32,000 nt of DNA from Nitrosococcus oceani ATCC 19707 (GCF_000012805.1 NC_007484.1:540001-572000), one strand, 5' to 3'; counted from the stretch's first letter, positions 18,870 to 30,940 are shown. The notes: a model not told the origin generated them from the sequence alone. Made by a program: numbers and translations.

Positions 18870-18946
18870 TGGCTATGTAGCTCAGTTGGTTAGAGCGCGG
18901 CACTCATAATGCTGAGGTCGGTGGTTCGAATCCACCCATAGCCACC
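18870..18946 (+). tRNA. tRNA-Met, elongator type (anticodon CAU)
   Basis: 77-nt cloverleaf GGCTATGTAGCTCAGTTGGTTAGAGC..CTCATAA..GGTTCGAATCC..CATAGCCACCA. The 5' half is nearly identical to E. coli metT/metU as I recall it. A lysidine-modified tRNA-Ile2 is less likely. Confidence 0.92.
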
Positions 18947-18980
18947 AAATACCCATCCAGGAAAATAGAAAGAAGTCCGG

Positions 18981-19016
18981 AAAGCTATTGTATTTACTAG
19001 CTTTTGGCTTTTTTTA
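18981..19016 (+). terminator. Probable intrinsic terminator after tRNA-Met
   Basis: 7-bp stem AAAGCTA(18981-87)/TAGCTTT(18998-19004), followed by a T-rich tract (..GGCTTTTTTTA). Confidence 0.5.
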
Positions 19017-19583
19017 TTGCCCAAGGCGGTCTTAAGGAGGTTATTGCTATCTCACGGTAACCTTAGCGGTATCCCAACGACCGTCAGAGCGCCAGCATTG
19101 GTGCTCACTGCAAGCGAAATCATAGTGCTTTTGATCTGGTAATTTCCTCCCGAAAGATGCCCACGACAGAATGGCGTAATCAGGGCTTGTTCAAAACGAG
19201 CTAACCCCCCATCCGTGGACGCCTCCAGTCTTGTTGGTATTGAGCGGACAACCATTTCCTGTATTAGCACCTAGTACCCGCGCTTAGGCGCACAATACAG
19301 AGTCTAAGCATGCTATATTATATATGCAAAATACATATTATACGCTTAATGCCAGCGCGTACTTCTATCGGAATCCTGAAGTCACTAGCTGCAAGAGGCC
19401 CATTGCAGCTTACTGAGAGGGGAGATAAAAGAAAATTTCAGTCCTCCAGGCAGGGCAATTAAACGAATTTTACTAGGGGATTATTCCCACAATACGTTAG
19501 CGTAGGTTTTCGCACCTATGCTCCCTAAACTCGAAACTGCATTTTATGCAGCATTCCTGAGTTTAATAACCAGAGGGATTTTT

Positions 19584-21056
19584 ATGATAAAAAAATATTT
19601 AAAAGCTACTCTCCTTTTTTTATTTTCTGGATTGCTGATCATAACTTACAGTACCCCCAAGGCTTCGGAACATAAAGATTTCTTCAGGCAAATTCTGGAA
19701 CAGAAAAAGCTCTTTCTACATGCCCCTGACTCTCTTCCCCTTGAATTCCGATCAACCCATGATCGCCACATCCTCGGCAACATGCGGGTAATGATCTTAG
19801 AGGGCCGGGAAACCTTCCGGTTTGATACCTTCGGCAATGAGCTATTTTGGGGTAAAACCTTAAGGCTTCATGAAGCGATTAAGGGCGCAAGTTTAGGGGG
19901 CGAGGGGCCAGGACTAACCCCTTCTCAAGCACTCGCCCTAGGATTGAAAGTTGATGTAAAGGCCCTCCCGTTTAGTTTTCAAAGAGATTTAAGGCGAGGA
20001 CGTGTTGATCTAGAAGATCCGGTGAATACGGTGGAATTGCTTAGGCTGAATGCCGTGGTAGGTTTGACCGGTTTCTTTGATAGCCAAGAAAATTTGACGG
20101 CTGTGGGAGTTCAGTGCGCTTTATGTCATTCCTTGGTGGATGATTCATTGGCGCCGGGTATTGGGCATCGGCTGGATGGGTGGGCTAACCGGGATCTCAA
20201 TATAGGGCAAATTATTGCCTTAGCACCCAATTTGCAACCCTTTGTCGATCTTTTGCAAATTGTCGATAGCAGTATCGATGCAGACACGGTAAGGGCAGTG
20301 CTAAATTCTTGGGGAGCAGGTAAATTTGATGCCCAACTGTTCCTGGATGGCAAGGCATTCAATCCTGAACGAACTGATCCCAAAACGGGCGAACCAGCAT
20401 CAGCCGCCACCATGCTCCCTTCTGTTTTTGGTCTTGCCGGGGTAAACTTGCACACCTGGACAGGATGGGGATCGGTTCCCCATTGGAATGCCTTTGTCGC
20501 CACTTTAGAGATGCAGGGAAAAGGAAGGTTTTTTGATCCCCGGTTAAATAACCCCGAGCAGTTTCCTATTGCCGCGGCAATGGGCTTTGGAAATTTAAAT
20601 GAGCATATCGATCCGGAAGAAGATCGGATTACCTCAAAACTCCCGGCCCTGCATTTCTATCAACTTTCCCTTCCCGCACCCAAGCCTAATCAAGGCGATT
20701 TCAACTCGGCAGCAGCGGAACGGGGACATGCACTCTTCAAAGTAAATTGCAATCGCTGTCACACTGAACCTCTTTTTACCGAACCGGGCTGGAATATGCA
20801 TCCTCCTCAAGAGATCGGCATTGATGCTTTCCAGGCCAACAGGAGCCCCGATAAGGCTTACCGCACACCCCCCCTCTCGGGCATCTTTGTACGGGAGAAA
20901 GGTCTTTTCATAAAAGACGAAAACAAAGGCCAATTCTTCCATGACGGCCGCTTCTCAACCTTGCTAGAAGTTATCAACCATTACGATAATTTTCTGAGTT
21001 TAGGTCTCAACGAAAATGAAAAGGAAGACTTAGTAGAATACCTAAAATCGCTTTAA
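19584..21056 (+). CDS. Secreted di-haem c-type cytochrome, cytochrome c peroxidase/MauG-like family
   Basis: ATG at 19584 with RBS AGAGGGA gives a signal peptide (MIKKYLKATLLFLFSGLLIITYS). Two CXXCH motifs (CALCH, CNRCH). The C-terminal FFHDGRFSTLLEVINHY...LVEYLKSL resembles CCP/MauG ends. Confidence 0.7.
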   Translation: MIKKYLKATLLFLFSGLLIITYSTPKASEHKDFFRQILEQKKLFLHAPDSLPLEFRSTHDRHILGNMRVMILEGRETFRFDTFGNELFWGKTLRLHEAIKGASLGGEGPGLTPSQALALGLKVDVKALPFSFQRDLRRGRVDLEDPVNTVELLRLNAVVGLTGFFDSQENLTAVGVQCALCHSLVDDSLAPGIGHRLDGWANRDLNIGQIIALAPNLQPFVDLLQIVDSSIDADTVRAVLNSWGAGKFDAQLFLDGKAFNPERTDPKTGEPASAATMLPSVFGLAGVNLHTWTGWGSVPHWNAFVATLEMQGKGRFFDPRLNNPEQFPIAAAMGFGNLNEHIDPEEDRITSKLPALHFYQLSLPAPKPNQGDFNSAAAERGHALFKVNCNRCHTEPLFTEPGWNMHPPQEIGIDAFQANRSPDKAYRTPPLSGIFVREKGLFIKDENKGQFFHDGRFSTLLEVINHYDNFLSLGLNENEKEDLVEYLKSL

Positions 21057-21288
21057 CGCCTGATTTAAAAATAGCAGGCACAAGTGTAGTGACTTACAAA
21101 CTCCAACGAATTAGGGGAGAGGTGTACAATCCGCATGGAGCGCTTACCTTTCCAAGTGGAACGGCAAACGCCCCATGCGGGTTTAGATTTCTATCGATTT
21201 AACTTACCTCGCGGAATTTTCCATCCCTAGCACCATTGCGTAGCTTTGGTGTTTGGGTGGAGATGAATAGCGAAGCGAGCGTTGTTCG

Positions 21289-21648
21289 CTAATCTTTCGC
21301 TCTTTCCTGTTTTTTGATGTATTCCCTCAATACTTCGAGCGGCACTGCTCCAGCGGTTATCAGGCAATAAGCTCTAGTCCATAGAACAGGTTTCCAGTAG
21401 AAGTTGAGTAGATACTCATTGAACTCTTTTCGGATCAACCTACTGGTGACCGTTTCTAGGCTATTGATGAATTTGCTCGGCATTATATTGGGGTGCATAT
21501 CCAGAAGTAGATGAACATGGTCAGCTTCGCCGCCAAACTCATCGAGGGCTATTCCCCACTTGGCACATTGCTCTTGGCATATCACTTCTAACCGCTGAAG
21601 CATGGCTTGCGTAAAACATTGTCGCCTGTATTGAGTCATCAACACCAA
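21289..21648 (-). CDS. tnpA: IS200/IS605 Y1 (HUH) transposase TnpA, apparently N-terminally short
   Basis: YRRQCF, the HUH motif ADHVHLLLD, and the catalytic-Tyr region WTRAYCLITAGAVPLEVLREYIKKQ. A TGA lies immediately upstream of the TTG start, where family members carry ~15-20 more residues (..YHxVWxxKYRR). Confidence 0.8.
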   Translation of the reverse strand: MVLMTQYRRQCFTQAMLQRLEVICQEQCAKWGIALDEFGGEADHVHLLLDMHPNIMPSKFINSLETVTSRLIRKEFNEYLLNFYWKPVLWTRAYCLITAGAVPLEVLREYIKKQERAKD

Positions 21649-21653
21649 TCAGC

Positions 21654-22882
21654 ATGACGATGAGAGCCTACAAGTTCAGGATTTATCCTAATGCTGAGCA
21701 GACAATACTTCTGGCTAAGCACTTCGGGTGTGCTCGATTTGTTTATAACTGGGCTTTATCAGAGAAGAAAAAGCATGACGAAGCGAGCGGGAAAAGTCTC
21801 TCTAAACGAGCCTTTCAGGACGCTTTAGTTGCCAGTAAAAAAGCGGATAAAGGCTGGCTCAATGAAGTCAATAGCCAAAGTCTTTTGGCCTTGCTCAATC
21901 ACTTAGATAAAGCCTTTTCCAATTTTTCCAAAGGATTAGCTAAATTTCCCCGCTTCAAAAGCAAGTAGGCGGGTCGTCAGTCCTTCCAATGCCCGCAACC
22001 TACTCAGGTTGACCATGAAAACGCGATATTCATCTACCTAAACTCAAAGGTATCAAGGCCAAGCTACACCGTAATTTTACGGGCAAGATAAAAACAGTCA
22101 CCGTTACTCGCAGCGCATCCAACAAATACCTTGCAAGCGTACTGATTGATGAGGCTACACAGGTACCTATCCCGGCCACGATTGAAGTCAGTCAAACGCT
22201 GGGGCTTGAGCATCTATTGATTGATAGCGAAGGGCGTAGAGTTGATAACCCACGGTATCACCGACAAGCCTTGAAAAGGCTGGCAATTGAGCAAAGAAAA
22301 TTGGCACGTCAGCAAAAAGGCTCAAGCAATAGAACCCAGCAAAGACGAAGGGTTGCTAGGGTTCATGGGCGGGTAGTCAACCAGAGAAACAATTTCATTC
22401 ACCCAATCACAGCAAGGTTGGTTGGCAAAGGCCAGGCAACTACCTTTGCCGTTGAAGATTTGAATGTCAAAGGCATGGTAAAGAACCGCAAACGATCTAG
22501 GGCTATTCAAGATGTCGGCTGGGGAATGTTTTTGACAACGCTTGAATATAAGTGTCGTTGGAATGGAAAAAATCTTATTCGCATCGCTCGATTCGAGCCT
22601 AGCTCAAAACTTTGTAATCGCTGTGGTTATAAAGCGTCCATTATGCCACTGTCAGTACGTCAGTGGTGCTGTCCTGCGTGTCAATCGGTTAATGGCCGCG
22701 ATATCAACGCAGCAAAAAATATAAGAGATTTCGCTTTAGCTGATGTGCTGGGACACAGCGCTTGTATCAAGAGTTCCCCTGCGACAACACCTATCAGCGT
22801 AGGTATCACAGCGAAAGGTGCCGAACATTTAGCTCGTCACGGGTCGCAAGAAGCCCCTGCTAGAGCCGATAAATCGGCTTAG
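21654..22882 (+). pseudogene. tnpB: tnpB (IS605 OrfB / RNA-guided nuclease family) disrupted by an in-frame TAG and a frameshift
   Basis: N-terminal MRAYKFRIYPNAEQ..FPRFKSK stops at TAG 21966-68. Homology continues in frame 0 (AGRQSFQCPQ..VDHEN), then shifts near the A-run at 22017-22021 to frame 2 (IHLPKLKGIKAKLHR..TVTRSASNKYLASV..). It runs on to the RuvC/Zn-ribbon part (AVEDLNVKGM, CNRCGY..CPACQ, GRDINAAKNI), ending at 22882. Confidence 0.85.
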
Positions 22883-22891
22883 TAGCAGGGG
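22854..22891 (+). repeat. Imperfect palindrome at the tnpB 3' end (candidate IS right-end TnpA-binding hairpin / omega-RNA stem)
   Basis: CCCCTGCTA-G-AGCCGAT-AA-ATCGGCT-TAG-TAGCAGGGG. A 9-bp outer and a 7-bp inner stem straddle the tnpB stop (22880-82). Confidence 0.5.
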
Positions 22892-22993
22892 TATGTCACT
22901 AGCTGCTTCAAGATCGCAGGATAGTAGAGGCGGAGTATGAATTGGGCCTTTTAAAATCTTTGACCTGGCGTGTAACAAAATATTATTTTCTGG

Positions 22994-24808
22994 CTAGCTT
23001 TCAGAGTCATCTGGGCTAAAGCTGATGATGGTATCTCCCGTTTCAGGAGGATTCAAACCAGCAAGGGGATAAAAGGTAAGCTGGCCGTTTTTAGTTACCA
23101 CCGCGATTAATATCAATTCCTGGGGACGATCCTGAAGATAATCCTCATAGGTATACTCTTCCGTGAGTTGTGTGCTGCGAAATTCCCAGCCATGGTAGTA
23201 GTGACGCATGAAATCCTCATATTGAGTATTTTCGTCAAAGGCGATTCTCCCTCGCGCCGAGCGGGCAAAGGTTTTATCCTTTTCGCTGGAATTTGCTATG
23301 GAAGGCAACTGGAAGACATGATTTTGACCTAGTTGCGGCGCGAAGCGGGTACACACAAGGGCATTGTAGGCGTCATTGGCGGTGACGGCCAGCACATAGC
23401 TGATGGCATTGAGTTCAAGAGAAGTTTCCGCAATTTCAGATAATATTTGTCCCCGGTATATCTCCAAATTCGATAGGCGCGCAGCCCGTAAGTGATGCCA
23501 TGAAGTGTCGTTTACAATCACGGGAATGCCTAGTTTTTTAAGCGAGCGGGCTAGATCGACTGACCAGGGAGTAGCGCCTACGATAAGTACCCCGTTGGGA
23601 TTATGAGCGGCGAGACCTAGAAGACGTCCTAGCCCCGCCATGGTGAGACCGTGCAGAATGACGGTAGCGGCGATCAGCGCAAAGACTAACGGCAGGAGTT
23701 GATCGGCGCCTTTAAAACCTTGCTGGATAAGAGGGAAGGCCAGTAAACCCGCCATTGAAGCGGCGACAATGCCTCGGGGAGCAATCCAGGCGATGAGCAA
23801 TCTTTCCCGCCACTTTATCCCCGTTCCTAAAGTGGCAAGATAGACGGAAAGAGGCCGCACGAAAAAGATAGCGATGCCCAGCAAGGCAAGGCTGTGCCAA
23901 TCTAGTCTGGCGAGCGTTTCAAGCTCGATGTTGGCGCTCAACACGATAAAGAGCGTTGAAACAAGGATAAGGGTGATATGTTCCTTGAAACGGCGCAGTT
24001 CTTCAATGTTACGCAGCCGTTGGTTGGCGACGACGACGCCTGCCACGGTAACGGCTAGCAGCCCCGCTTCTTCTTGGACGGCATTGATGGCGACATAGAG
24101 CAAGAGTACGGCGCCAAGCATCACCGGAGATTTCAGGAATTCCGGGACATGCCCCCGGTGAAAGGCCCAACTTAACAAGTAGCCAAAGCCGATACCTGCG
24201 CTGGTAGCAGCGAGCAAGCCTAGGCCAAGGTTGCCTAGCGCCGCAAGTATCCCGTGCTCAGGGGACTCCATTACCCAGTACCACACGGCCCAATACTGGA
24301 AGACTAAAATGGCAAGCAAGGCGCCTAGTGGATCATTAATAATTCCCTCCCATTTAAGCAGCGCCGCCGTACGGCGCTGAAGGCGGGCAAATTTCAACAG
24401 CGGCATAAGCACTGTAGGACCCGTGACTACACTGATGGCGCCGAAGAGGGTAGCTATTGGCCAAGAGAGGCCCGCGATAAAGTGCGCTGCTGCTGTATTG
24501 AGGGTCCAGGTTAAAAATAATCCCAAGCTGACTAAACGCCTTACATCGACGCCAGCTTCTTTGTATTCATGCCACTGAAGGTTAAGTCCGCCTTCGAATA
24601 AAATGATGGCCACGGAGAGAGCTATTAAAGGAGGGAGGATATGGCCGAAAGTTTGCTCCGGATCGAGCCAGCCTAAGACCGGTCCAAGCGCGAAACCAGC
24701 CATTAACAGCAGCACAATAGCCGGGACTTGAAAGCGCCATGCTAGCCACTGGATGCTAACCCCAAGCACGACAATAAACGAAAAAATGAGGATTAGATCA
24801 GATTCCAT
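22994..24808 (-). CDS. Cation:proton antiporter (Na+/H+ exchanger family) with C-terminal cytoplasmic RCK/TrkA-like domain
   Basis: 604 aa. About 11-13 hydrophobic helices with Na_H_exchanger-like features (ILFEGGLNL). The soluble tail has a Rossmann-like GVLIVGATPWSVDLARSLKKLGIPVIVND. Confidence 0.85.
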   Translation of the reverse strand: MESDLILIFSFIVVLGVSIQWLAWRFQVPAIVLLLMAGFALGPVLGWLDPEQTFGHILPPLIALSVAIILFEGGLNLQWHEYKEAGVDVRRLVSLGLFLTWTLNTAAAHFIAGLSWPIATLFGAISVVTGPTVLMPLLKFARLQRRTAALLKWEGIINDPLGALLAILVFQYWAVWYWVMESPEHGILAALGNLGLGLLAATSAGIGFGYLLSWAFHRGHVPEFLKSPVMLGAVLLLYVAINAVQEEAGLLAVTVAGVVVANQRLRNIEELRRFKEHITLILVSTLFIVLSANIELETLARLDWHSLALLGIAIFFVRPLSVYLATLGTGIKWRERLLIAWIAPRGIVAASMAGLLAFPLIQQGFKGADQLLPLVFALIAATVILHGLTMAGLGRLLGLAAHNPNGVLIVGATPWSVDLARSLKKLGIPVIVNDTSWHHLRAARLSNLEIYRGQILSEIAETSLELNAISYVLAVTANDAYNALVCTRFAPQLGQNHVFQLPSIANSSEKDKTFARSARGRIAFDENTQYEDFMRHYYHGWEFRSTQLTEEYTYEDYLQDRPQELILIAVVTKNGQLTFYPLAGLNPPETGDTIISFSPDDSES

Positions 24809-25501
24809 AAAATGTTGTTTGGTAGAAACATAGAGGTAAGGATAGCAGGCTATTGAGTCTTGTCCCTATCCGCGGCGTTAACTATCCTCAAGCTATGAAG
24901 TTTCTCTGGTCGTGTTTTAGATTAGGAGAATTGAGTAGATTGACACTGGGCAAAAGCCTAGCAGTTCATCCAATAAACTCAAGGAAGAAAAAACAGGCGC
25001 TTTCCAGGGCGCTTATTCCTGTGTATTTCACCTGATACACCCTGTTAGGCGAATGGCGCGCCACAGGATGGGCCTCTCCAAAGTCCGCCAATTGGTATGG
25101 TATCGCCATTGGACTGTCTGTTAAACGATAGGGAGCTAGTATGCAGGCGTAAAGTTGTTATCTCAGAGATGGAACACCGCCGTTTCTCTTAGTCCATAAT
25201 GGTTATTAGGATGGAAGCAATTCTTGGGAGGAGACTGGAGAACCAGGGTGGTGACGTGGGCCAGGTACAGGCAATTCCACGGCCGGCCTGCGCACATATA
25301 ATCAGCCGGTGGGGAATGGGGTCAGGGTTGTCCGCTAAGCGATGAAATAGAGGAGGGAATCAATTGTGGGGGCGAGCAGCCAGACTATTTTTACTTAGCC
25401 CATAGGGCAGATAGGCGTGGGGGATATGCCACATACCGGCGGCCGAGCAGAAGTATCTCACGCCGTGGGCGTCGGGCCGATCCTTAGGAGGAGGCGATGC
25501 A

Positions 25502-25873
25502 ATGAGAGGCGTTATTATAACTGCTCTGCTAACATTGATATTTTTATTTTGGCTGGCGGGGGGGCTTTACGGTTTTTTAAAAACCAAAAATAAGTCGCCA
25601 GAGGCCAAGCGAACGGTGGCCTATATTCTTGGATATCCCTTGCTGGCGGTTTATGTGGCGAGTGATGGCTTACCGCCGGCCGCAATCGTCTTCCCTGTTG
25701 GCCTGGGAGGCGTGTTTTGGCTATTGGCTGGTATGCACCTACAGAAAGTTTTAGAAGGTGAGTACCCACCCACGCCTGGGACATTTATTGGACTTTCCAT
25801 AAAGTATTGCCTTGGCGGCGTCCTCGGCGCATTTCTTCTGGGCGCTTTGCTTCAATACGCCGGGCTGTTTTAG
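25502..25873 (+). CDS. Small integral membrane protein (about 4 TM helices), unknown function
   Basis: 123-aa ORF with a strong RBS (AGGAGGAGG, 7 nt upstream of ATG). Four hydrophobic segments. No motif recognised. Confidence 0.55.
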   Translation: MRGVIITALLTLIFLFWLAGGLYGFLKTKNKSPEAKRTVAYILGYPLLAVYVASDGLPPAAIVFPVGLGGVFWLLAGMHLQKVLEGEYPPTPGTFIGLSIKYCLGGVLGAFLLGALLQYAGLF

Positions 25874-26166
25874 GTGCCGTTTGGGGTAAGATAGCAATGC
25901 CCTCCTTTGTGGATTGAACGACCATCATCGGATTGAGTTTATAGTAGGGCTTTAGCGCAAATTTTCGAAAAAGCTCAATAAAGGCAAGTCGATCAGTTTA
26001 GAAATATCAAAATTACTTTGCCTATGATGTGCGTATTTGCTAAAGCTAATGGGGGCTGGCAAAATTAATAATTATTTGATATAGGGATAAAAATAAGTAT
26101 TAGTCAATAGCTGATTGCGTATGATAAGGCGCAGGTTGATCAGTTTATTTTATGTTGGGCGTAAAC

Positions 26167-26517
26167 ATGACGAATACAGCGAACGAAGTGGAGTGCGCTT
26201 ACTGTGGCGCCGTGCTTCCAGATGGACACACGTCGCCTTGCCCCCAGTGCGGAAAGAAGGGACGGAAAATCTCGGTCAGCGTAGCCGAAGAAATCAACGT
26301 TGCCGAGAAGGTGACATGGGAGAAGCGACGAGAGTTTTATGAAAAGCATCCGCTGGCATGGGCGACGGTCATCGCTATAACAATTGGCGCACCATTTCTC
26401 GGTTTATTCTTGGCGGGGTGGGCTGGGGTGATCGCCGGCTTGGCGCTAGGCGGTATCGCATATTGGATTGGTCCGATTGCGGTCACGAAAGTAAGAGAGA
26501 TTGAGCGGGGTGGTTAA
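26167..26517 (+). CDS. Zinc-ribbon protein with two C-terminal TM helices, unknown function (cassette B)
   Basis: CAYC..x13..CPQC Zn-ribbon, then WATVIAITIGAPFLGLFLAGWAGVIAGLALGGIAYWIGPIAV. The ATG lies 6 nt after the GTTGGGC box (alternative ATG at 26152). The stop lies 5 nt before attC1. Confidence 0.55.
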   Translation: MTNTANEVECAYCGAVLPDGHTSPCPQCGKKGRKISVSVAEEINVAEKVTWEKRREFYEKHPLAWATVIAITIGAPFLGLFLAGWAGVIAGLALGGIAYWIGPIAVTKVREIERGG

Positions 26518-26522
26518 TTCTC

Positions 26523-26594
26523 GCCCAACAAGTCGCTCCAGCCGACCGTCAAACCGCTGCGCGGCTCGCCGTCGGCTGAGCTTCGGCGTTGGGC
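26523..26594 (+). other. attC-like recombination site 1 (72 nt)
   Basis: GCCCAAC-AAGTC-GCTCCAGCCGAC...GTCGGCTGAGC-TTCGGC-GTTGGGC. The R boxes are perfectly complementary. The L arms pair over 11 bp with one bulged C. It matches the AACAAnTCGnTCnAGCCGAC pattern of aadA-type 59-base elements as I recall it. Confidence 0.8.
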
Positions 26595-26703
26595 TTTTTG
26601 GCAGCAGTGTTTTCTCTATAACCATTTAATATCCCGAGATTTAAATTAAAAATGAGATTTTTTGATTATGATAAAATGATTACAAAGTTTGGGGTGCATC
26701 GTG

Positions 26704-26982
26704 ATGAGTCAAATTATAAATCTGGAATTAAGTAACAGTACATTTGAAGCTATTCAAAAAAAAGCTAAAGAAGCCGGCCTATCGCCATCCAATTTAATAA
26801 AAGAGCTACTAGAGAAAAAATATCATTCTAAAGTGATGTCTGAAGAGGGTAAGGATAAAGCGCGTTCTAATTTTGAACGCCATTTTGGTGGGTTTGATTT
26901 AGGTTATTCAATGGGAGCGGATAACGAAGATATTGATAAAGAGTTGGCAAATTCGTATATGGATAGTAATGGGGCGGGTTAA
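26704..26982 (+). CDS. Ribbon-helix-helix type antitoxin (VapB-like) (cassette C)
   Basis: MSQIINLELSNSTFEAIQKKAKEAGLSPSNLIKELLEK is an RHH-like beta-alpha-alpha N-terminus. The stop overlaps the toxin start (TAATG at 26980-84). The start could be GTG 26701 or TTG 26689. Confidence 0.6.
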   Translation: MSQIINLELSNSTFEAIQKKAKEAGLSPSNLIKELLEKKYHSKVMSEEGKDKARSNFERHFGGFDLGYSMGADNEDIDKELANSYMDSNGAG

Positions 26983-27455
26983 TGTTACTGGACACTTCTG
27001 GCCTTTACTGTTTACTTCACAAAGCAGAATTTTTTCATAAGCAAGCGTGTGAATTTTACTACTCTGCTCAGAGGCGAGTGACAAATAATTATGTTTTAGA
27101 CGAGTTTATTGCACTGGCTAGTGTGCGCCGACTCCCTCGGGAAAAATCTTTAGCGTTCGTCACCGATTTATTAAACAATCCTGATATTCAGGTGATTTGG
27201 ATAGATGAATCACTAAATAACGAAGCGTTAACTTTGCTGCATGCACGAAAAGATAAAGGTTATTCTTTACGTGATGCCGTCAGTTTTATAATTATGCGCC
27301 AAAAAAACATTGATGAAGCATTGACGACAGACATCACTTTGAACAGGAAGGTTTTCGGCGGCTTCTTATTTAGCGTAATAGTAGCGAAAGGGTACAGCCT
27401 AACAGGGCGCTGTAGAGAACATTTGACAAAGTGCGCCAACCTGCGTTCCGCGTAG
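26982..27455 (+). CDS. vapC: PIN-domain (VapC-like) toxin with a probable 1-nt deletion near the 3' end (cassette C)
   Basis: MLLDTSGL.. (Asp4), ..LDEF.., ..SLRDAVSF.., ..ALTTD. After the fourth acidic residue, the canonical PIN C-terminus HHFEQEGFRRLLI* is readable only in the adjacent frame (27332-27373). The annotated frame runs on into attC2. Confidence 0.8.
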   Translation: MLLDTSGLYCLLHKAEFFHKQACEFYYSAQRRVTNNYVLDEFIALASVRRLPREKSLAFVTDLLNNPDIQVIWIDESLNNEALTLLHARKDKGYSLRDAVSFIIMRQKNIDEALTTDITLNRKVFGGFLFSVIVAKGYSLTGRCREHLTKCANLRSA

Positions 27456-27498
27456 AACAGGCGTGTTTGTCAAATACCGCTGAGCTTGGTCGTTAAGT
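27397..27498 (+). other. attC-like recombination site 2 (102 nt)
   Basis: GCCTAAC-AGGGC-GCT..ATTTGACAAA...TTTGTCAAAT..GAGC-TTGGTC-GTTAAGT. There is a 10-bp perfect inner stem, and the spacer geometry matches site 1. Confidence 0.7.
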
Positions 27499-27514
27499 TT
27501 TTAGGAATTTTGTA

Positions 27515-27910
27515 ATGGCAAAAGATTGGAAAGAATTAACCACTGACGAGCTTCTAAACTTTAACGGACCCGAGACAGCGGAGATAGCTCGGTTTGAGAG
27601 AATTATGCAGCAACGCACTGCGGAGTCTCTCAGAGAATTTCAGTCCGAGCTATCGAATACCGCTAATCATATAAATCAATCCACGGATCGGATAGTCGGA
27701 GTTGGTAATAGGTTGATTAAAACAATTGAAGCACAAGGAGAGGCTCAAAAGAAACATCAGCGATCAATCGTCTGGCTCACAGTTGTAATTGCGGTCGCTA
27801 CTGTGGCTTATGTAATTATCACCTGGTTCTCAGTACAAACGATGCAAGAAGCCAATGATATTCAGCGCAAATCAGCCAACATTGAGCGGTCCGGGAATAC
27901 AAAAACCTAA
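27515..27910 (+). CDS. Coiled-coil protein with a C-terminal TM anchor, unknown function (cassette D)
   Basis: 131 aa with RBS AGGA. A helical N-terminal ~85 aa, then SIVWLTVVIAVATVAYVIITWFSV. The stop TAA lies inside the ACCTAAC box of attC3. Confidence 0.55.
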   Translation: MAKDWKELTTDELLNFNGPETAEIARFERIMQQRTAESLREFQSELSNTANHINQSTDRIVGVGNRLIKTIEAQGEAQKKHQRSIVWLTVVIAVATVAYVIITWFSVQTMQEANDIQRKSANIERSGNTKT

Positions 27911-27985
27911 CAAATCGTTGGAGACGGACGTTTGTTCCGCAGGCTGCGCCCGCTCTAAAAACGCTGCTCAACTCCCCGATTAGTC
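27905..27985 (+). other. attC-like recombination site 3 (81 nt) with a non-canonical 3' core (ATTAGTC)
   Basis: ACCTAAC-AAATC-GTTGGAGACGGAC...GCTGCTCAAC-TCCCCG-ATTAGTC. The L arms pair with a bulged G. At the position fixed by the 6-nt spacer, the core reads A-TT instead of G-TT. Confidence 0.6.
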
Positions 27986-28009
27986 CTTAAGCTGTTTGTA
28001 GGAGCCCAG

Positions 28010-28657
28010 ATGGCCTTCTATGATGAATTGAACGACGAGAGCAACTTCGTTGCTTCATTTACAAGTAATTCGAAGGGAGACTTTGGCGTTTTCGCCAAGG
28101 GATACCGGCTCGGCGCGGAGCGGCTCGCCGAATCTCTTACCAGTGCGCACAGGTTTGCAGACTATGAGGCGTATCCGGTCGTCTTCTTATATCGGCACGC
28201 CCTTGAGCTTTCGCTCAAACATATTATTTACAGCGCTGCCCTGATTAGCGCATTTCAATTCTCCCCTAGTGCAGACGGCCGTCTTAAGAACGATCATCGT
28301 CTCCCGCCCTTAGCATCAGGAGTCGCTCAAGTGTTAGAGCTTCTGTTCCCAAAGGAAGGCTCCCTTGGGCTGCTGATGCGCGAAATCTCTGAAATCTGCG
28401 ATGATTGGCGCAATCTTGATCCGCATTCTTATGCGTACCGCTATCCGATCGACATTCAAGGTAAACCTTCGACGAGGCAACACCAAGTCGTAAATCTTCG
28501 AAGCCTTGCTTTCCGTATGTCTACGGTCCTTGAATCATTGGAGACCGTTCACTTCGGCCTCAACATAGAGACTGATAAGGCACAGGAGATCTATGAGACA
28601 GTTCAGCAGATTATTGTGTCTATATCGCATCCCACTGACACTGAAAGTGAAGGCTAA
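28010..28657 (+). CDS. HEPN-like domain protein, unknown function (cassette E)
   Basis: 215 aa with RBS AGGAG. Three motifs occur in HEPN (PF05168-type) order: FLYRHALELSLKHII (cf. QQAxEKALKALL), RLKNDHRLPPL (Rx4H, cf. THDL) and HSYAYRYPID (cf. YYIxTRYPD). The stop TAA lies inside the GGCTAAC box of attC4. Confidence 0.6.
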   Translation: MAFYDELNDESNFVASFTSNSKGDFGVFAKGYRLGAERLAESLTSAHRFADYEAYPVVFLYRHALELSLKHIIYSAALISAFQFSPSADGRLKNDHRLPPLASGVAQVLELLFPKEGSLGLLMREISEICDDWRNLDPHSYAYRYPIDIQGKPSTRQHQVVNLRSLAFRMSTVLESLETVHFGLNIETDKAQEIYETVQQIIVSISHPTDTESEG

Positions 28658-28739
28658 CAAGGGCATACAGGCGACGGCAAACAGCATCCGCTCGTTCCCC
28701 GCTCCCGCTGTCTGCCATTCCTGGTACTTATCGTTAGGT
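28652..28739 (+). other. attC-like recombination site 4 (88 nt)
   Basis: GGCTAAC...GGCAAACAGC...GCTGTCTGCC...TATC-GTTAGGT. CTAAC/GTTAG are complementary, and the inner 10-bp stem has one mismatch. Confidence 0.6.
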
Positions 28740-28882
28740 TTCTTGGTAACCAAGACTCTTTTTTGAGGGTTGTAATGAGATGATCCAGAACGTAAGGTAG
28801 ATACTGCCAGCCGATATCGTATTCGCATACGACTTCTCTGTATTCTCTCCGGCAATCAAATGACGAATGGCGCTATGCTTTC

Positions 28883-29686
28883 ATGGACGATGACGAGTTT
28901 CGAGAATCGCTGAAAGGAGACCCTGTACAGGCGGCGGAAATCTATTGGAAGGAAATGCTGTATAGGGCGCACATCGTTTGTTTGGTATCAGCGTTCAAAA
29001 CACTGCGTTGGATCGAAGCACTCGATTCAACTTTCGAGAACTACTATGGTTTTTGCACGTCGTTGCGCGGGCTAATTGAATCTTGTTCCGACGCATTCTA
29101 TACCCTGCGGTCAACTCCGCTAACGCTAGCGCGAGACTTCTTTGTGATAAAGGAGCAGATCAACCGACGGTCTGGTGTGATTACGCTTCATGAGAATCTT
29201 GAAGGGCTGTTACTTCATTATATCCAGGCGACAAGACTGAGTCCGTCTCAAAAGAGGCAATATCCTGACTCGTTCAGCGCAAAATCCGTCAGGGACTATT
29301 TGTCCACGATGGATAATGAGAAACTGGATCATTTATATCAATGGCTGTGTGGTATTGCGCACCCCGCATACGAATCCACAAGGATCTTCCTTTTTTGTTA
29401 TGAAGGGCAAACTATTGTATGCAACGATAGTTACGAGATGGAAAGAGTGTTGATCAGGGATATTCTACAAGCCTATGCACCTGCGCTTACAAAAATGATA
29501 CGGACTTACATGAATAACCTGATTTCTATATTTATGTTGCTAAACGAGTTCGAAATCGAAAACATCGTTACCACGGTAGATAATGAGTCAGAGTTCAAGG
29601 AAACAGCGATATGGGCAGAAGTTCAACAATACATATACGAGTCGGAGTTTCTGTATCGACATGGTCACTACGAACAAAAAACATAA
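28883..29686 (+). CDS. All-alpha orphan protein with AbiV/DUF5677-like motif pair, unknown function (cassette F)
   Basis: 267 aa. SLRGLIESCSDAFYTL and LYQWLCGIAHPAYES resemble the two conserved helices of AbiV/DUF5677-type proteins (from memory). The RBS is weak. The stop TAA lies inside the ACATAAC box of attC5. Confidence 0.6.
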   Translation: MDDDEFRESLKGDPVQAAEIYWKEMLYRAHIVCLVSAFKTLRWIEALDSTFENYYGFCTSLRGLIESCSDAFYTLRSTPLTLARDFFVIKEQINRRSGVITLHENLEGLLLHYIQATRLSPSQKRQYPDSFSAKSVRDYLSTMDNEKLDHLYQWLCGIAHPAYESTRIFLFCYEGQTIVCNDSYEMERVLIRDILQAYAPALTKMIRTYMNNLISIFMLLNEFEIENIVTTVDNESEFKETAIWAEVQQYIYESEFLYRHGHYEQKT

Positions 29687-29735
29687 CAATGGGTTCAGTT
29701 CATAATAATGAACTTGTGTGAAGTAGAGGTTGGGT
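29681..29735 (+). other. attC-like recombination site 5 (55 nt, classic 59-be size)
   Basis: ACATAAC-AATGG-GTTC-AGTTCAT-AATA-ATGAACT-TGTGTGAAGTAGAG-GTTGGGT. The next ORF starts 5 nt downstream. Confidence 0.6.
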
Positions 29736-29740
29736 AAACT

Positions 29741-29970
29741 ATGACTGTGAACTACAGAGATAGAATAACATTGGAACCGGGTAAGAGGTCCGGGAAGCCA
29801 TGCGTAAGGGGTCTTCGGATAATGGTTTACGATGTGTTGGGGTCCTCGCCTCAGGAATGAGCGTTGATGAAATCCTTGCTGATTTCCCGGACTTGGAGCG
29901 GGAAGATATACTGGCTTGTTTAGCCTATGCGGCCGATCCGCGCCATAGCATTGTTCCCAAGTCAGCATAG
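29741..29970 (+). pseudogene. DUF433-type antitoxin, frameshifted (cassette G)
   Basis: MTVNYRDRITLEPGKRSGKPCVRGLRIMVYDVLG (29741-) stops at 29858-60. The expected continuation LASGMSVDEILADFPDLEREDILACLAYAAD.. is in the +1 frame and ends at TAG 29968-70. The shift lies near 29838-29845. Confidence 0.7.
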
Positions 29971-30339
29971 AAGATCCTGCTGGATCAAAATTTATCGCCG
30001 AAACTATGCGATAGACTGGCTCCTGATTATGAAGCAATTCACGTCCGTAATATTGGTACGGGTTCAGCGAGTGATGTCGAAATATGGAATTATGCGGCGA
30101 AAAATAACTACTCTATAGTTGCTAAGAATGAAGTTTTTAACGGCTTGTCACAAGTAAAGGGATTTCCTCCGCATGTTATATGGGTGCGATTGGATAATTT
30201 TTCTACAAATAATGTCTTGAATATGTTAAAGAATAATCATTCGGCTATAGTTCAGATAATTGAGAGTGCTGAAGCCAGTATAATAAGGCAAGCGACGGCT
30301 GCCGGGAACAGCCAAGCGAGACTTAGCCGTAAACTCTAA
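29971..30339 (+). pseudogene. DUF5615 / Mut7-C-like PIN-fold toxin partner of DUF433, lacking a start codon (cassette G)
   Basis: The open frame KILLDQNLSPKLCDRL..DVEIWNYAAKNNYSIVAKN..PPHVIWVRLDNFS.. begins directly after the TAG of the upstream gene (..GCATAGAAGATC..). The first ATG/GTG/TTG in frame is at 30145 (codon ~59). Confidence 0.65.
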
Positions 30340-30370
30340 AATGTTTATCTAAAGGAGCCATCTACTCTAT

Positions 30371-30940
30371 ATGCCACAATTCCTGCTAGGTCTCGCGTTA
30401 TTCTTCGGCATGCATTCTATATCCATCGTAGCCTTGCCGCTACGTGATCAATTGGCGGCAAAAAGCGAAATCGGATGGAAAATACTGTATGGCAGTGTCT
30501 CTCTCATTGGGATTATTCTCATATCAAGGGGTTACGTGGACCTAAGACAGGCACCCACTTTACTTTACGTATCACCTATTTGGTTGCATCATGTAGTTAC
30601 CATTCTTTTGCTGCCAACATTCATTCTTTTTCTTGCGCCATACTTTCCTGGGCGAATTAATAACACTGTAAAACATCCGCAGCTTGTCGCTGTGATGATT
30701 TGGGCCGTGGCGCACTTATTGGTAAACGGCACGTTAGCCGACCTATTGTTGTTCGGGTCGTTCTTGCTGTGGGCCATCGTAGATCGTATCTCGATGATGA
30801 ATCGAGCTACCCGCTCAGTACCCAGTGTGCCTCAATCGAAAGCAAACGACATTATCGTGGTTGTGGTTGGCTTGGCTGTATATGCGGCAATCGTTTTCTG
30901 GCTTCATGAAACGCTGCTAGGCGTGAAGCCGCTCATCTAG
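30371..30940 (+). CDS. NnrU-family integral membrane protein
   Basis: 189 aa with RBS AGGAG. About five TM helices. KHPQLVAVMIWAVAHLLVNGTLADLLLFGSFLLWA resembles the NnrU signature. Confidence 0.65.
   Translation: MPQFLLGLALFFGMHSISIVALPLRDQLAAKSEIGWKILYGSVSLIGIILISRGYVDLRQAPTLLYVSPIWLHHVVTILLLPTFILFLAPYFPGRINNTVKHPQLVAVMIWAVAHLLVNGTLADLLLFGSFLLWAIVDRISMMNRATRSVPSVPQSKANDIIVVVVGLAVYAAIVFWLHETLLGVKPLI

What the first reader, a model, noticed from the sequence alone, without database searches (positions are those of the whole stretch)
26154..30340. Integron-type gene-cassette array with no integrase in sight (CALIN-like)
Five sites share integron attC architecture: 26523-26594, 27397-27498, 27905-27985, 28652-28739 and 29681-29735.
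- Each has a 5' RYYYAAC-like box: GCCCAAC, GCCTAAC, ACCTAAC, GGCTAAC, ACATAAC.
- A ~5-nt spacer follows, then imperfect inverted arms with bulged bases, then a ~6-nt spacer.
- Each ends in a 3' GTTRRRY box: GTTGGGC, GTTAAGT, (A)TTAGTC, GTTAGGT, GTTGGGT.
- Each begins at or within 5 nt of the stop of a + strand ORF. The TAA stop lies inside the 5' box three times.
- The next ORF starts 5-143 nt after the 3' box, and all ORFs are co-oriented.
- Distances between successive G|TT points are 434, 904, 487, 754 and 996 nt, which are typical cassette sizes.
- An extra GTTGGGC half-site (26154-60) sits 6 nt before the first ORF.
The cargo also fits chromosomal cassette arrays: two toxin-antitoxin modules plus orphan proteins. 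No tyrosine recombinase ORF and no attI is recognisable anywhere in the 32 kb.
Basis: partly seen in the sequence, partly recalled or inferred. Interest (0 to 1): 0.8.

Follow-up and report, generated by a model that had tools for sequence, protein, structure and literature searches.

The report
Integrase-less integron cassette array (CALIN)
A 4.2-kb stretch of the Nitrosococcus oceani chromosome is a real but decaying array of integron gene cassettes with no integrase nearby, which is a well-described kind of element and so an ordinary finding.

Summary
Site 1 scores E 5e-11 and sites 4, 2 and 3 score E 0.02-0.11. Site 5 scores E 2.2, which is noise level.

Site 1 is 82-86% identical over its full length to the attC of the cmlA cassette. 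Site 3 is about 80% identical to the attC of blaVIM cassettes. Relatives of cassette proteins c4 and c5 sit in attC arrays in other organisms, and homology there starts at the R' box.

No integron integrase or remnant lies within 26 kb upstream or 10 kb downstream. The locus therefore meets the published definition of a CALIN.

The array looks like a relic. One toxin-antitoxin pair is broken, c5 has lost its N-terminus, attC3 lacks the crossover G, attC5 is degenerate and the last cassette has no attC. All N. oceani assemblies fetched carry the identical array.

Verdict: a new member of a known kind, of low interest. Whether the genome encodes IntI elsewhere could not be tested.

The parts
26154..26160 (+). 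Lone R'-type box GTTGGGC marking the start of cassette 1. It is the junction with a lost attI or with a secondary insertion site.
   Evidence: Read from the sequence. No R''/L'' partner lies upstream, and neither CM reports a hit there.
26167..26517 (+). Cassette 1 ORF (116 aa): zinc-ribbon N-terminus plus a hydrophobic C-terminus. Function unknown.
   Evidence: ORF list. Only weak Pfam hits below the cut-off: DUF7129 and Zn_ribbon_NOB1.
26523..26594 (+). attC1, canonical and probably still functional.
   Evidence: CM R1 49.7 bits, E 4.9e-11; R2 55.4 bits. It is 82-86% identical over its full length to the cmlA attC in 1,232 plasmids. The bottom strand folds at -23.5 kcal/mol, z -3.3, with a perfect 7/7 R-box stem and bulged bases in the L'' arm.
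26704..26982 (+). Cassette 2, antitoxin gene (ribbon-helix-helix / CopG-like).
   Evidence: Weak Pfam hits to RHH_1, CopG_antitoxin and NikA-like. Its stop overlaps the start of the PIN gene.
26982..27455 (+). Cassette 2, PIN-domain (VapC-like) toxin gene. The 3' end probably carries a 1-nt frameshift after codon 117, so the ORF reads into attC2.
   Evidence: Pfam PIN E 3e-7. The alternative frame gives the tail ...TTDHHFEQEGFRRLLI* and a slightly higher PIN score, 35.3 against 31.5 bits. The frameshift is an inference.
27397..27498 (+). attC2 (102 nt), with a long imperfect stem.
   Evidence: CM R1 14.8 bits, E 0.068; R2 18.3 bits, E 0.043. R boxes are GCCTAAC / GTTAAGT. The L box is GCT-G-TAG / CTGAGC with a bulged base. 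No plasmid homologue was found.
27515..27910 (+). Cassette 3 ORF (131 aa), coiled-coil plus one transmembrane segment. Function unknown.
   Evidence: ORF list. No family above cut-off in Pfam, PADLOC or PHROGs. Its stop TAA lies inside the R'' box ACCTAAC.
27905..27992 (+). attC3, a degenerate relative of the blaVIM attC. It ends in two tandem R'-like heptamers, ATTAGTC (27979-85) and CTTAAGC (27986-92), neither with the crossover G.
   Evidence: blastn gave 81-84% identity to blaVIM attC sites in 227 plasmids, E 1e-10; global identity is 79%. CM R1 13.9 bits, E 0.11. The constrained fold is -6.1 kcal/mol, against -19.3 for the VIM-5 attC. The junction was compared with other c4 cassettes.
28010..28657 (+). 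Cassette 4 ORF (215 aa), a member of a widespread all-helical family of unknown function.
   Evidence: 233 homologues. Relatives are followed or flanked by attC sites in L023/L024 (28.1 bits) and L047. AF2 pLDDT 82, with no significant PDB match.
28652..28739 (+). attC4 (88 nt).
   Evidence: CM R1 17.1 bits, E 0.017; R2 19.1 bits, E 0.029. The R'' box GGCTAAC, which contains the stop codon, is conserved in c4 cassettes of two other arrays.
28778..29686 (+). Cassette 5 gene (Noc_0528). The intact ORF is 28883-29686 (267 aa). The ancestral N-terminal 35-49 codons (28778-28882) are disrupted by in-frame stops and a frame change.
   Evidence: Homologues are about 300 aa. tblastn with P0122 aligns through two stops. 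In L029 a relative lies between two attC hits, and homology with the window starts at the R' box GTTAKGT-TTCTTRG.
29681..29735 (+). attC5: a marginal, short or degenerate attC (55 nt).
   Evidence: CM R1 9.0 bits, E 2.2; R2 8.8 bits, E 4.4, both at noise level. R boxes are ACATAAC / GTTGGGT. The bulge is on the wrong (L') arm. Position fits: R'' holds the c5 stop codon, as in c5 relatives that carry real attC sites.
29741..29970 (+). Cassette 6, DUF433 antitoxin-like gene, frameshifted (a pseudogene).
   Evidence: The Pfam DUF433 profile is split: positions 1-26 match frame 29741-29857 and positions 25-56 match frame 29800-29967.
29971..30339 (+). Cassette 6, DUF5615 (PIN-like toxin) gene without an ATG/GTG/TTG start. 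ATAG stands where ATG is expected. No attC follows, and this is the end of the array.
   Evidence: Pfam DUF5615 E 3e-24, matching from the first codon after the in-frame TAG at 29968-70. No CM hit lies between 30340 and the NnrU start at 30371.

Best explanation
The locus is a CALIN (cluster of attC sites lacking an integron integrase) in the chromosome of Nitrosococcus oceani. It holds six co-oriented integron gene cassettes bounded by five attC sites. The array lies between a 123-aa ORF on the left (25502-25873, with a Na+/H+ exchanger gene beyond it) and an NnrU gene on the right.

**Origin (inferred from the established integron mechanism).** Each cassette was once a promoterless circle made of an ORF plus an attC. 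An IntI tyrosine recombinase inserted it after binding the folded bottom strand of the attC and exchanging strands at the G|TT of the R' box. The recipient was either an attI site or a secondary genomic site.

**Present state (shown).** No integrase lies in cis, and the array is the same in every N. oceani assembly fetched. It has started to decay. Only attC1 looks fully competent. attC2 and attC4 are plausible. The attC3 junction has lost its crossover G and most of its stem stability, and attC5 is vestigial. One toxin-antitoxin pair is broken, c5 is N-terminally truncated, and the last cassette has no attC.

**How it works now (inferred).** It is a static remnant. Its genes are expressed, if at all, from local promoters or read-through. 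At most the first two cassettes could still be excised if an integrase were supplied in trans.
For: **Shown by tool results.**
1. An independent CM built from clinical attC sites recovers the five sites, all on the + strand, with no comparable hit elsewhere in 32 kb on both strands. A second CM agrees.
2. attC1 is homologous to the cmlA attC and attC3 to the blaVIM attC. Both lie in the same position and orientation relative to the upstream ORF, downstream of intI1 in the plasmids.
3. The c4 and c5 gene families are cassette-borne elsewhere:
   - L023/L024 have an attC directly after the c4 stop.
   - L047 has attC sites on both sides of c4.
   - L029 has four attC hits, with c5 between two of them.
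   - Window-L029 homology starts at the R' box. The c4 5' end (G)TTAGCC is complementary to its own R'' GGCTAAC.
4. There is no IntI. Pfam on 24 of the larger non-overlapping ORFs outside the array found no tyrosine recombinase. tblastn with IntI1 gave a best E of 0.39 over the window plus L013 plus L001. The called genes 10 kb to the right hold no integrase.
5. The attC sites are heterogeneous, at 39-63% pairwise identity. Cury et al. describe this for CALINs (PMC4889954, abstract).
6. Decay is documented.
7. The array is fixed: 0-5 SNPs and no indels across 14 full-length copies from NCBI assemblies and SRA runs.

**Organism.** The proteins are named Nitrosococcus oceani and Noc_0528 of ATCC 19707.
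Against: - attC5 is not significant with either CM, and its bulge lies on the L' arm rather than the L'' arm.
- Sites 2-4 have only modest E-values (0.02-0.6) from roughly calibrated home-made models. The IntegronFinder attC model itself was not available.
- Recombination activity was not tested.
- The rest of the N. oceani genome could not be searched. An IntI elsewhere, and hence occasional activity in trans, cannot be excluded.
- No empty-site or variant array was found in relatives, so mobility at this locus is inferred from other organisms only.
Confidence: 0.9

Rival explanations
1. The array is one half of a complete chromosomal integron. The intI/attI platform was separated from it by a rearrangement, for example one mediated by an IS, and still exists elsewhere in the N. 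oceani genome. The cassettes would then remain part of an active system working in trans.
For: About half of the CALINs in Cury et al. are in genomes that encode IntI elsewhere, and 38% have a neighbouring IS. An IS200/IS605 element lies 3.3 kb to the left. attC1 is structurally intact.
Against: The array is identical in all assemblies, with no reshuffling. attC3 and attC5 are degenerate, two cassettes are pseudogenised, and there is no terminal attC. No paper found links N. oceani to an integron. The genome itself could not be searched.
Confidence: 0.2
2. The cassettes arrived singly or as a block by IntI-catalysed insertion into a non-att genomic site ('attG'). The integrase was supplied by a transient mobile integron, and the locus never had its own integrase.
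For: Loot et al. show that integrases insert cassettes outside att sites (bioRxiv 10.1101/2022.09.11.507474, abstract). The left boundary is a lone GTTGGGC with no recognisable attI or intI remnant. Most CALINs (95%) have no nearby intI pseudogene.
Against: Nothing distinguishes this from complete deletion of intI and attI. No empty site is available for comparison. This is a variant of the main explanation, differing in origin and not in kind.
Confidence: 0.3
3. The palindromes are REP/BIME-like or terminator-like intergenic hairpins of the host that merely resemble attC sites.
For: They are imperfect intergenic palindromes placed right after stop codons. A Y1 transposase gene is nearby. Sites 2, 3 and 5 do not fold significantly better than shuffles.
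Against: - The sites are only 39-63% alike, so they are not a repeat family.
- No copy exists elsewhere in 52 kb of the genome.
- Two of them are homologous to bona fide attC sites of class 1 integrons.
- The Y1_Tnp gene is paired with a TnpB/OrfB gene, so it is IS200/IS605 and not a RAYT.
- No T-tracts follow the stems.
Confidence: 0.02

Closest known systems
[quoted passage not shown] 2016, IntegronFinder)
   Same: - Two or more attC sites less than 4 kb apart on one strand, with no intI within 4-10 kb.
- Small size: five attC sites is the reported average.
- Heterogeneous attC sites.
- Cassettes mostly of unknown function with no resistance genes.
- An IS in the neighbourhood.
   Different: Nothing essential differs. 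This one shows clear signs of decay (pseudogenised cassettes, degenerate attC3 and attC5, no terminal attC) and is fixed in the species as sampled here.
Class 1 mobile integron cassette arrays (intI1-attI1-cassettes, e.g. with cmlA and blaVIM cassettes)
   Same: - The cassette architecture is the same.
- attC1 is 82-86% identical to the cmlA attC.
- attC3 is about 80% identical to the blaVIM attC.
- The attC sites within the array are heterogeneous.
   Different: It has no intI1, attI1, Pc promoter, 3' conserved segment or Tn402 context. It carries no resistance genes. It is chromosomal, in a marine ammonia oxidiser.
Sedentary chromosomal integrons (e.g. the Vibrio cholerae superintegron)
   Same: - Chromosomal location.
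- Cassettes of unknown function.
- Toxin-antitoxin cassettes. That these are common there and thought to stabilise arrays is from my own knowledge of the integron literature.
   Different: Those have an integrase and tens to hundreds of cassettes. My own knowledge is that their attC sites are highly similar (VCR-type). Here there are five sites of 39-63% identity and no integrase.

Membership tests
Integron attC recombination site | Terminal inverted core sites: R'' RYYYAAC at the 5' end and R' G|TTRRRY at the 3' end, mutually complementary. | tested here: met
   Met for sites 1, 2, 4 and 5, with 5-7 of 7 pairs counting G-T. Site 3 has the R'' box ACCTAAC, but its R' is ATTAGTC or CTTAAGC without the crossover G, so the feature is not met for that site.
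Integron attC recombination site | Internal imperfect inverted repeat L''/L' separated from the R boxes by 5-6 nt unpaired spacers, with extrahelical bases on the L'' arm of the folded bottom strand. | tested here: inconclusive
   - Clear for site 1, which matches the cmlA attC fold.
- Present but looser for sites 2 and 3.
- Site 4 has 9-nt unpaired spacers in the constrained fold.
- Site 5 has its 5-nt bulge on the L' arm.
Integron attC recombination site | Significant match to an attC covariance model. IntegronFinder uses attC_4.cm. | tested here: met
   The IntegronFinder model was not available. Two home-made CMs from independent attC sites gave site 1 at E 5e-11 and sites 4, 2 and 3 at E 0.017-0.56. 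Site 5 scored E 2.2-4.4 and is not met. E-values are rough.
Integron attC recombination site | Recombined by an integron integrase as a folded single (bottom) strand. | not testable with these tools
   This needs a conjugation or recombination assay.
CALIN (Cury et al. 2016) | [quoted passage not shown] | tested here: met
   Four supported sites and one marginal site, all on the + strand, 487-996 nt apart.
CALIN (Cury et al. 2016) | No integron integrase gene near the cluster (4 kb by default, 10 kb in the control analysis). | tested here: met
   None lies within 26 kb upstream or about 10 kb downstream, by Pfam, by the gene tables, and by tblastn with IntI1 (best E 0.39).
Complete integron | An intI gene with an adjacent attI site and Pc promoter upstream of the first cassette. 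| tested here: not met
   No intI or remnant was found. attI sites are integrase-specific and cannot be recognised without the integrase. The promoter scan found fewer sigma-70-like sites than in shuffles.
Sedentary chromosomal integron | A large array whose attC sites are highly similar to each other, together with an integrase. | tested here: not met
   There are five sites of 39-63% pairwise identity and no integrase.
REP/BIME repeats with RAYT | One short palindrome family present in many copies in intergenic regions across the genome, associated with a solitary Y1 (RAYT) transposase. | tested here: not met
   No second copy of any site exists in 52 kb. The sites are dissimilar to each other. 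The nearby Y1_Tnp gene is paired with TnpB, so it is IS200/IS605. The whole genome was not searchable.

The most novel reading that the evidence does not exclude
attC1 and attC3 share recent ancestry with the attC sites of the clinically important cmlA and blaVIM cassettes. The marine gammaproteobacterial cassette pool sampled by N. oceani would then be close to the environmental source from which those resistance cassettes, or at least their attC partners, were recruited. This relic would be a datable chromosomal fossil of that pool.
Probability: 0.08. Interest if true: 0.45.

Novelty: new member of a known kind. Interest (0 to 1): 0.2.

Why it matters
It matters little beyond annotation.

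- It shows that the hypothetical genes around Noc_0528 in N. oceani are horizontally acquired integron cassettes, now frozen and partly decayed. This adds one clean example of a CALIN as an evolutionary end-stage between cassette capture and loss or domestication.
- Two cassette protein families, c4 and c5, are conserved, confidently modelled and without known function or fold match. They may be modestly useful leads for work on cassette cargo.
- The homology of attC1 and attC3 to the cmlA and blaVIM attC sites is a small data point on how widely clinical attC types occur in the environment.

Tried and rejected
- **Rfam at gathering threshold:** only two tRNAs were found, and no attC family matched.
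- **blastn of sites 2, 4 and 5 against plasmids:** only chance hits or none.
- **Synteny and empty-site search:**
  - The genome-contig scan with the Na+/H+ exchanger found no relative.
  - The closest NnrU homologues with long contigs, at 81% and 76% identity, have unrelated neighbourhoods.
  - No presence/absence comparison across species was therefore possible.
- **Strain comparison:** all N. oceani copies are identical or differ by 5 SNPs, so there is no polymorphism.
- **Literature:** no paper links N. oceani with integrons or attC sites. The Cury 2016 supplement is not held, and the IntegronFinder 2.0 supplements do not mention Nitrosococcus.
- **Function of c1, c3, c4 and c5:** nothing significant from Pfam, PADLOC, PHROGs, PDB sequence profiles (c4 and c5 only) or Foldseek against PDB on the AF2 models of c4 and c5.
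- **PIN frameshift:** the corrected frame raises the Pfam score only slightly, so the frameshift remains an inference.
- **Promoter scan:** no enrichment.
- **IntI remnant:** tblastn gave noise only.
- **c4 family as exclusively cassette-borne:** rejected. 18 of the 19 genome loci searched had no attC next to the c4 gene.

Full report
**What is there.** The window is a piece of the Nitrosococcus oceani chromosome. Its proteins are found with 100% identity in N. oceani assemblies, and one of them is named Noc_0528 of strain ATCC 19707.

Positions 1-18.9 kb hold housekeeping genes: gcvT, argH, hemCDXY, minCDE, prfA, hemA, lolB, ispE, prs, rplY, pth, ychF and two tRNAs. Next come a cytochrome-like ORF, an IS200/IS605-type element (Y1_Tnp 21289-21648 and a TnpB remnant 22217-22882), a Na+/H+ exchanger gene (22994-24808, minus strand) and a 123-aa ORF.

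The finding occupies 26154-30340. An NnrU gene follows directly at 30371.

To test them without circularity I took real attC sites from class 1 integrons on plasmids. Twelve sites were used: aadB, smr, qacF, blaVIM-5, dfrA14, dfrA15, qnrVC4, blaOXA-21, cmlA, aac(6')-Ib4, aph(3')-XV and catB2. I aligned them (A1) and imposed the textbook attC structure: a 7-bp R stem, unpaired spacers, and an L stem with two bulges. From this I built covariance model R1.

R1 was run with filters off over all 32 kb on both strands.

| Site | Coordinates | Bits | E-value |
|---|---|---|---|
| 1 | 26523-26594 | 49.7 | 4.9e-11 |
| 4 | 28652-28739 | 17.1 | 0.017 |
| 2 | 27397-27498 | 14.8 | 0.068 |
| 3 | 27905-27992 | 13.9 | 0.11 |
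| 5 | 29681-29735 | 9.0 | 2.2 |

The only other hit better than E 2 is the reverse strand of the near-palindromic site 1. A second model, R2, was built from 25 matches in plasmid and metagenome loci and none from the window. It gives the same ranking, with site 5 again at noise level. About 20 kb of extra N. oceani flank holds no further site. Four sites are therefore supported, and the fifth rests on its position only.

**Direct homology to known attC sites.**
- blastn of site 1 against 72,556 plasmids hit 1,232 records at 82-84% identity over 72-77 nt (E 3e-11).
- In three records inspected, the match is the attC about 20 nt downstream of the cmlA stop codon, in class 1 integron arrays and in the same orientation. 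intI1 is annotated upstream of the array in two of them. Global identity is 86%.
- Site 3 hit 227 plasmids at 81-84% over 67 nt (E 1e-10). The match is the attC of blaVIM-1 and blaVIM-5.
- Sites 2, 4 and 5 have no plasmid relatives.

Within the array the five sites are only 39-63% identical to each other. They are not a repeat family. Heterogeneous attC sites are the hallmark that Cury et al. report for CALINs.

**Evidence that the units are cassettes.**

*c4 (215 aa).* It has 233 homologues.
- In metagenome contigs L023 and L024, a 61%-identical relative is followed at once by an attC hit of 28.1 bits.
- In genome locus L047, a 57%-identical relative is flanked on both sides by attC hits within a five-site array.
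- In both, the cassette begins with (G)TTAGCC, the exact complement of its own R'' box GGCTAAC, which contains the stop codon. The N. oceani copy keeps GGCTAAC and begins with (C)TTAAGC.

*c5 (Noc_0528).* It has 34 homologues.
- In L029, a 66%-identical relative lies between two attC hits in an array of four.
- Homology with the window starts right at the R' box: GTTATGT-TTCTTAG in L029 against GTTAGGT-TTCTTGG in the window. The preceding attC sites are unrelated.

This is the breakpoint pattern expected for integrase-mediated cassette exchange.

- an RHH-PIN pair;
- a DUF433-DUF5615 pair;
- two small membrane-associated orphan proteins.

**No integrase.** Pfam on 24 of the larger non-overlapping ORFs outside the array found no tyrosine recombinase, nor do the gene tables for the rest. 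tblastn with IntI1 against the window and two flanking loci gave nothing better than E 0.39. The called genes for 10 kb to the right include no integrase.

With five co-oriented sites less than 1 kb apart, and no intI within 26 kb on the side where it should be, the locus meets the published CALIN definition. Whether the genome encodes IntI elsewhere could not be tested with the tools at hand.

**State of the array.** It is decaying.
- DUF433 is split over two frames. DUF5615 starts right after an in-frame TAG and has no ATG, GTG or TTG start.
- The c5 gene has lost its ancestral N-terminal 35-49 codons to stop codons and a frame change.
- The PIN gene probably carries a 1-nt frameshift near its end and reads into attC2. 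This is an inference.
- attC3 keeps the L'' arm of its blaVIM relative, but uncompensated changes have collapsed the stem: -6.1 against -19.3 kcal/mol.
- The attC3 junction shows two tandem R'-like heptamers, neither with the crossover G. I cannot explain this junction.
- attC5 is vestigial.
- The last cassette has no attC.

All 14 full-length copies from NCBI assemblies and SRA runs are identical or differ by 5 SNPs. None has an indel or a SNP inside an attC. The array is thus fixed and static in the species as sampled.

**Rivals.**
- *REP- or terminator-like hairpins.* The dissimilarity of the sites, the absence of other copies and the homology to clinical attC sites argue strongly against this reading. 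The nearby Y1 transposase belongs to an IS200/IS605 element, not a RAYT.
- *Split integron.* An integrase elsewhere in the genome remains possible, at about 0.2.
- *Origin by insertion at a non-att genomic site.* This is described by Loot et al. and cannot be told apart from loss of intI and attI.

**Comparison with what is known, and novelty.** This is a textbook CALIN. It is average in size, has heterogeneous attC sites, carries unknown-function and toxin-antitoxin cargo, and has an IS nearby. I found no paper that mentions it, but any IntegronFinder run should report it. It is a new member of a known kind, and interest is low.

The most novel reading left open is that attC1 and attC3 tie this marine cassette pool to the source of the cmlA and blaVIM cassettes. 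Environmental arrays commonly carry attC sites close to clinical types. One example is L029 3177-3236, which is close to the aadB/qacF type. I give this reading a probability below 0.1.

Noticed in passing
window 21289-22882: An IS200/IS605-type element lies 3.3 kb left of the array. It has a Y1_Tnp gene (21289-21648, minus strand) and a TnpB gene (OrfB_IS605 plus Cas12f1-like TNB, 22217-22882) that looks split or truncated. Gene calls for it differ between assemblies.
   Followed up: partly
window 27973-27995: The junction between attC3 and cassette 4 reads TCCCCG-ATTAGTC-CTTAAGC-TG. It holds two tandem degenerate R'-like heptamers. Comparison with c4 cassettes in L047 and L023 puts the start of the cassette at the second one, which leaves 7 extra nt unexplained.
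   Followed up: partly
window 28010-28657 (c4); loci L023, L024, L034-L080: c4 belongs to a conserved family of more than 230 proteins across Chloroflexota, Cyanobacteria, Acidobacteriota, Desulfobacterota and others. The AF2 model is an all-helical bundle (pLDDT 82) with only weak resemblance to HEPN toxins. The family is cassette-borne in three arrays, but lies next to an attC in only 1 of the 19 genome loci searched.
   Followed up: partly
window 28883-29686 (c5, Noc_0528); loci L025, L028, L029: The c5 family has 34 homologues and invariant Cys and His residues. Its AF2 model is confident (pLDDT 87) but has no PDB match at E <= 0.001. One relative (L025) sits in an island with a type I restriction-modification system, a HEPN_LA2681 protein and a P4-type integrase.
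   Followed up: partly
window 25984-26000 and 26131-26147: A 17-nt direct repeat, GCARGTYGATCAGTTTA (88% identity), occurs twice 147 nt apart in the AT-rich non-coding stretch just upstream of the lone R' box at 26154. Its meaning is unknown. It does not have the spacing of the attI1 direct repeats.
   Followed up: no
window 26575-26601 and 27479-27505: The 3' ends of attC1 and attC2 are 78% identical over 27 nt, covering L', the spacer, R' and 7 nt beyond R'. The rest of the two sites is unrelated.
   Followed up: no
window 18871-26150: The stretch from tRNA-Met to the array has lower G+C (about 0.43-0.48, except the exchanger gene) than the housekeeping region to its left (about 0.50-0.55). 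The Na+/H+ exchanger found no relative in the one-genome-per-species collection. The whole stretch may be an older island.
   Followed up: no
L029 3177-6914; L047 5888-8225: These are two further integrase-less attC arrays, one on a metagenome contig and one in a MAG. No IntI1 homologue was found in the locus DNA fetched, about 5-6 kb on either side of the c4 or c5 relative. One attC in L029 is very close to the clinical aadB/qacF attC type.
   Followed up: partly
L076 1733-2677: A Thermoanaerobaculia MAG encodes an IntI1 homologue (52% identity) next to a distant c4 relative (25% identity).
   Followed up: no
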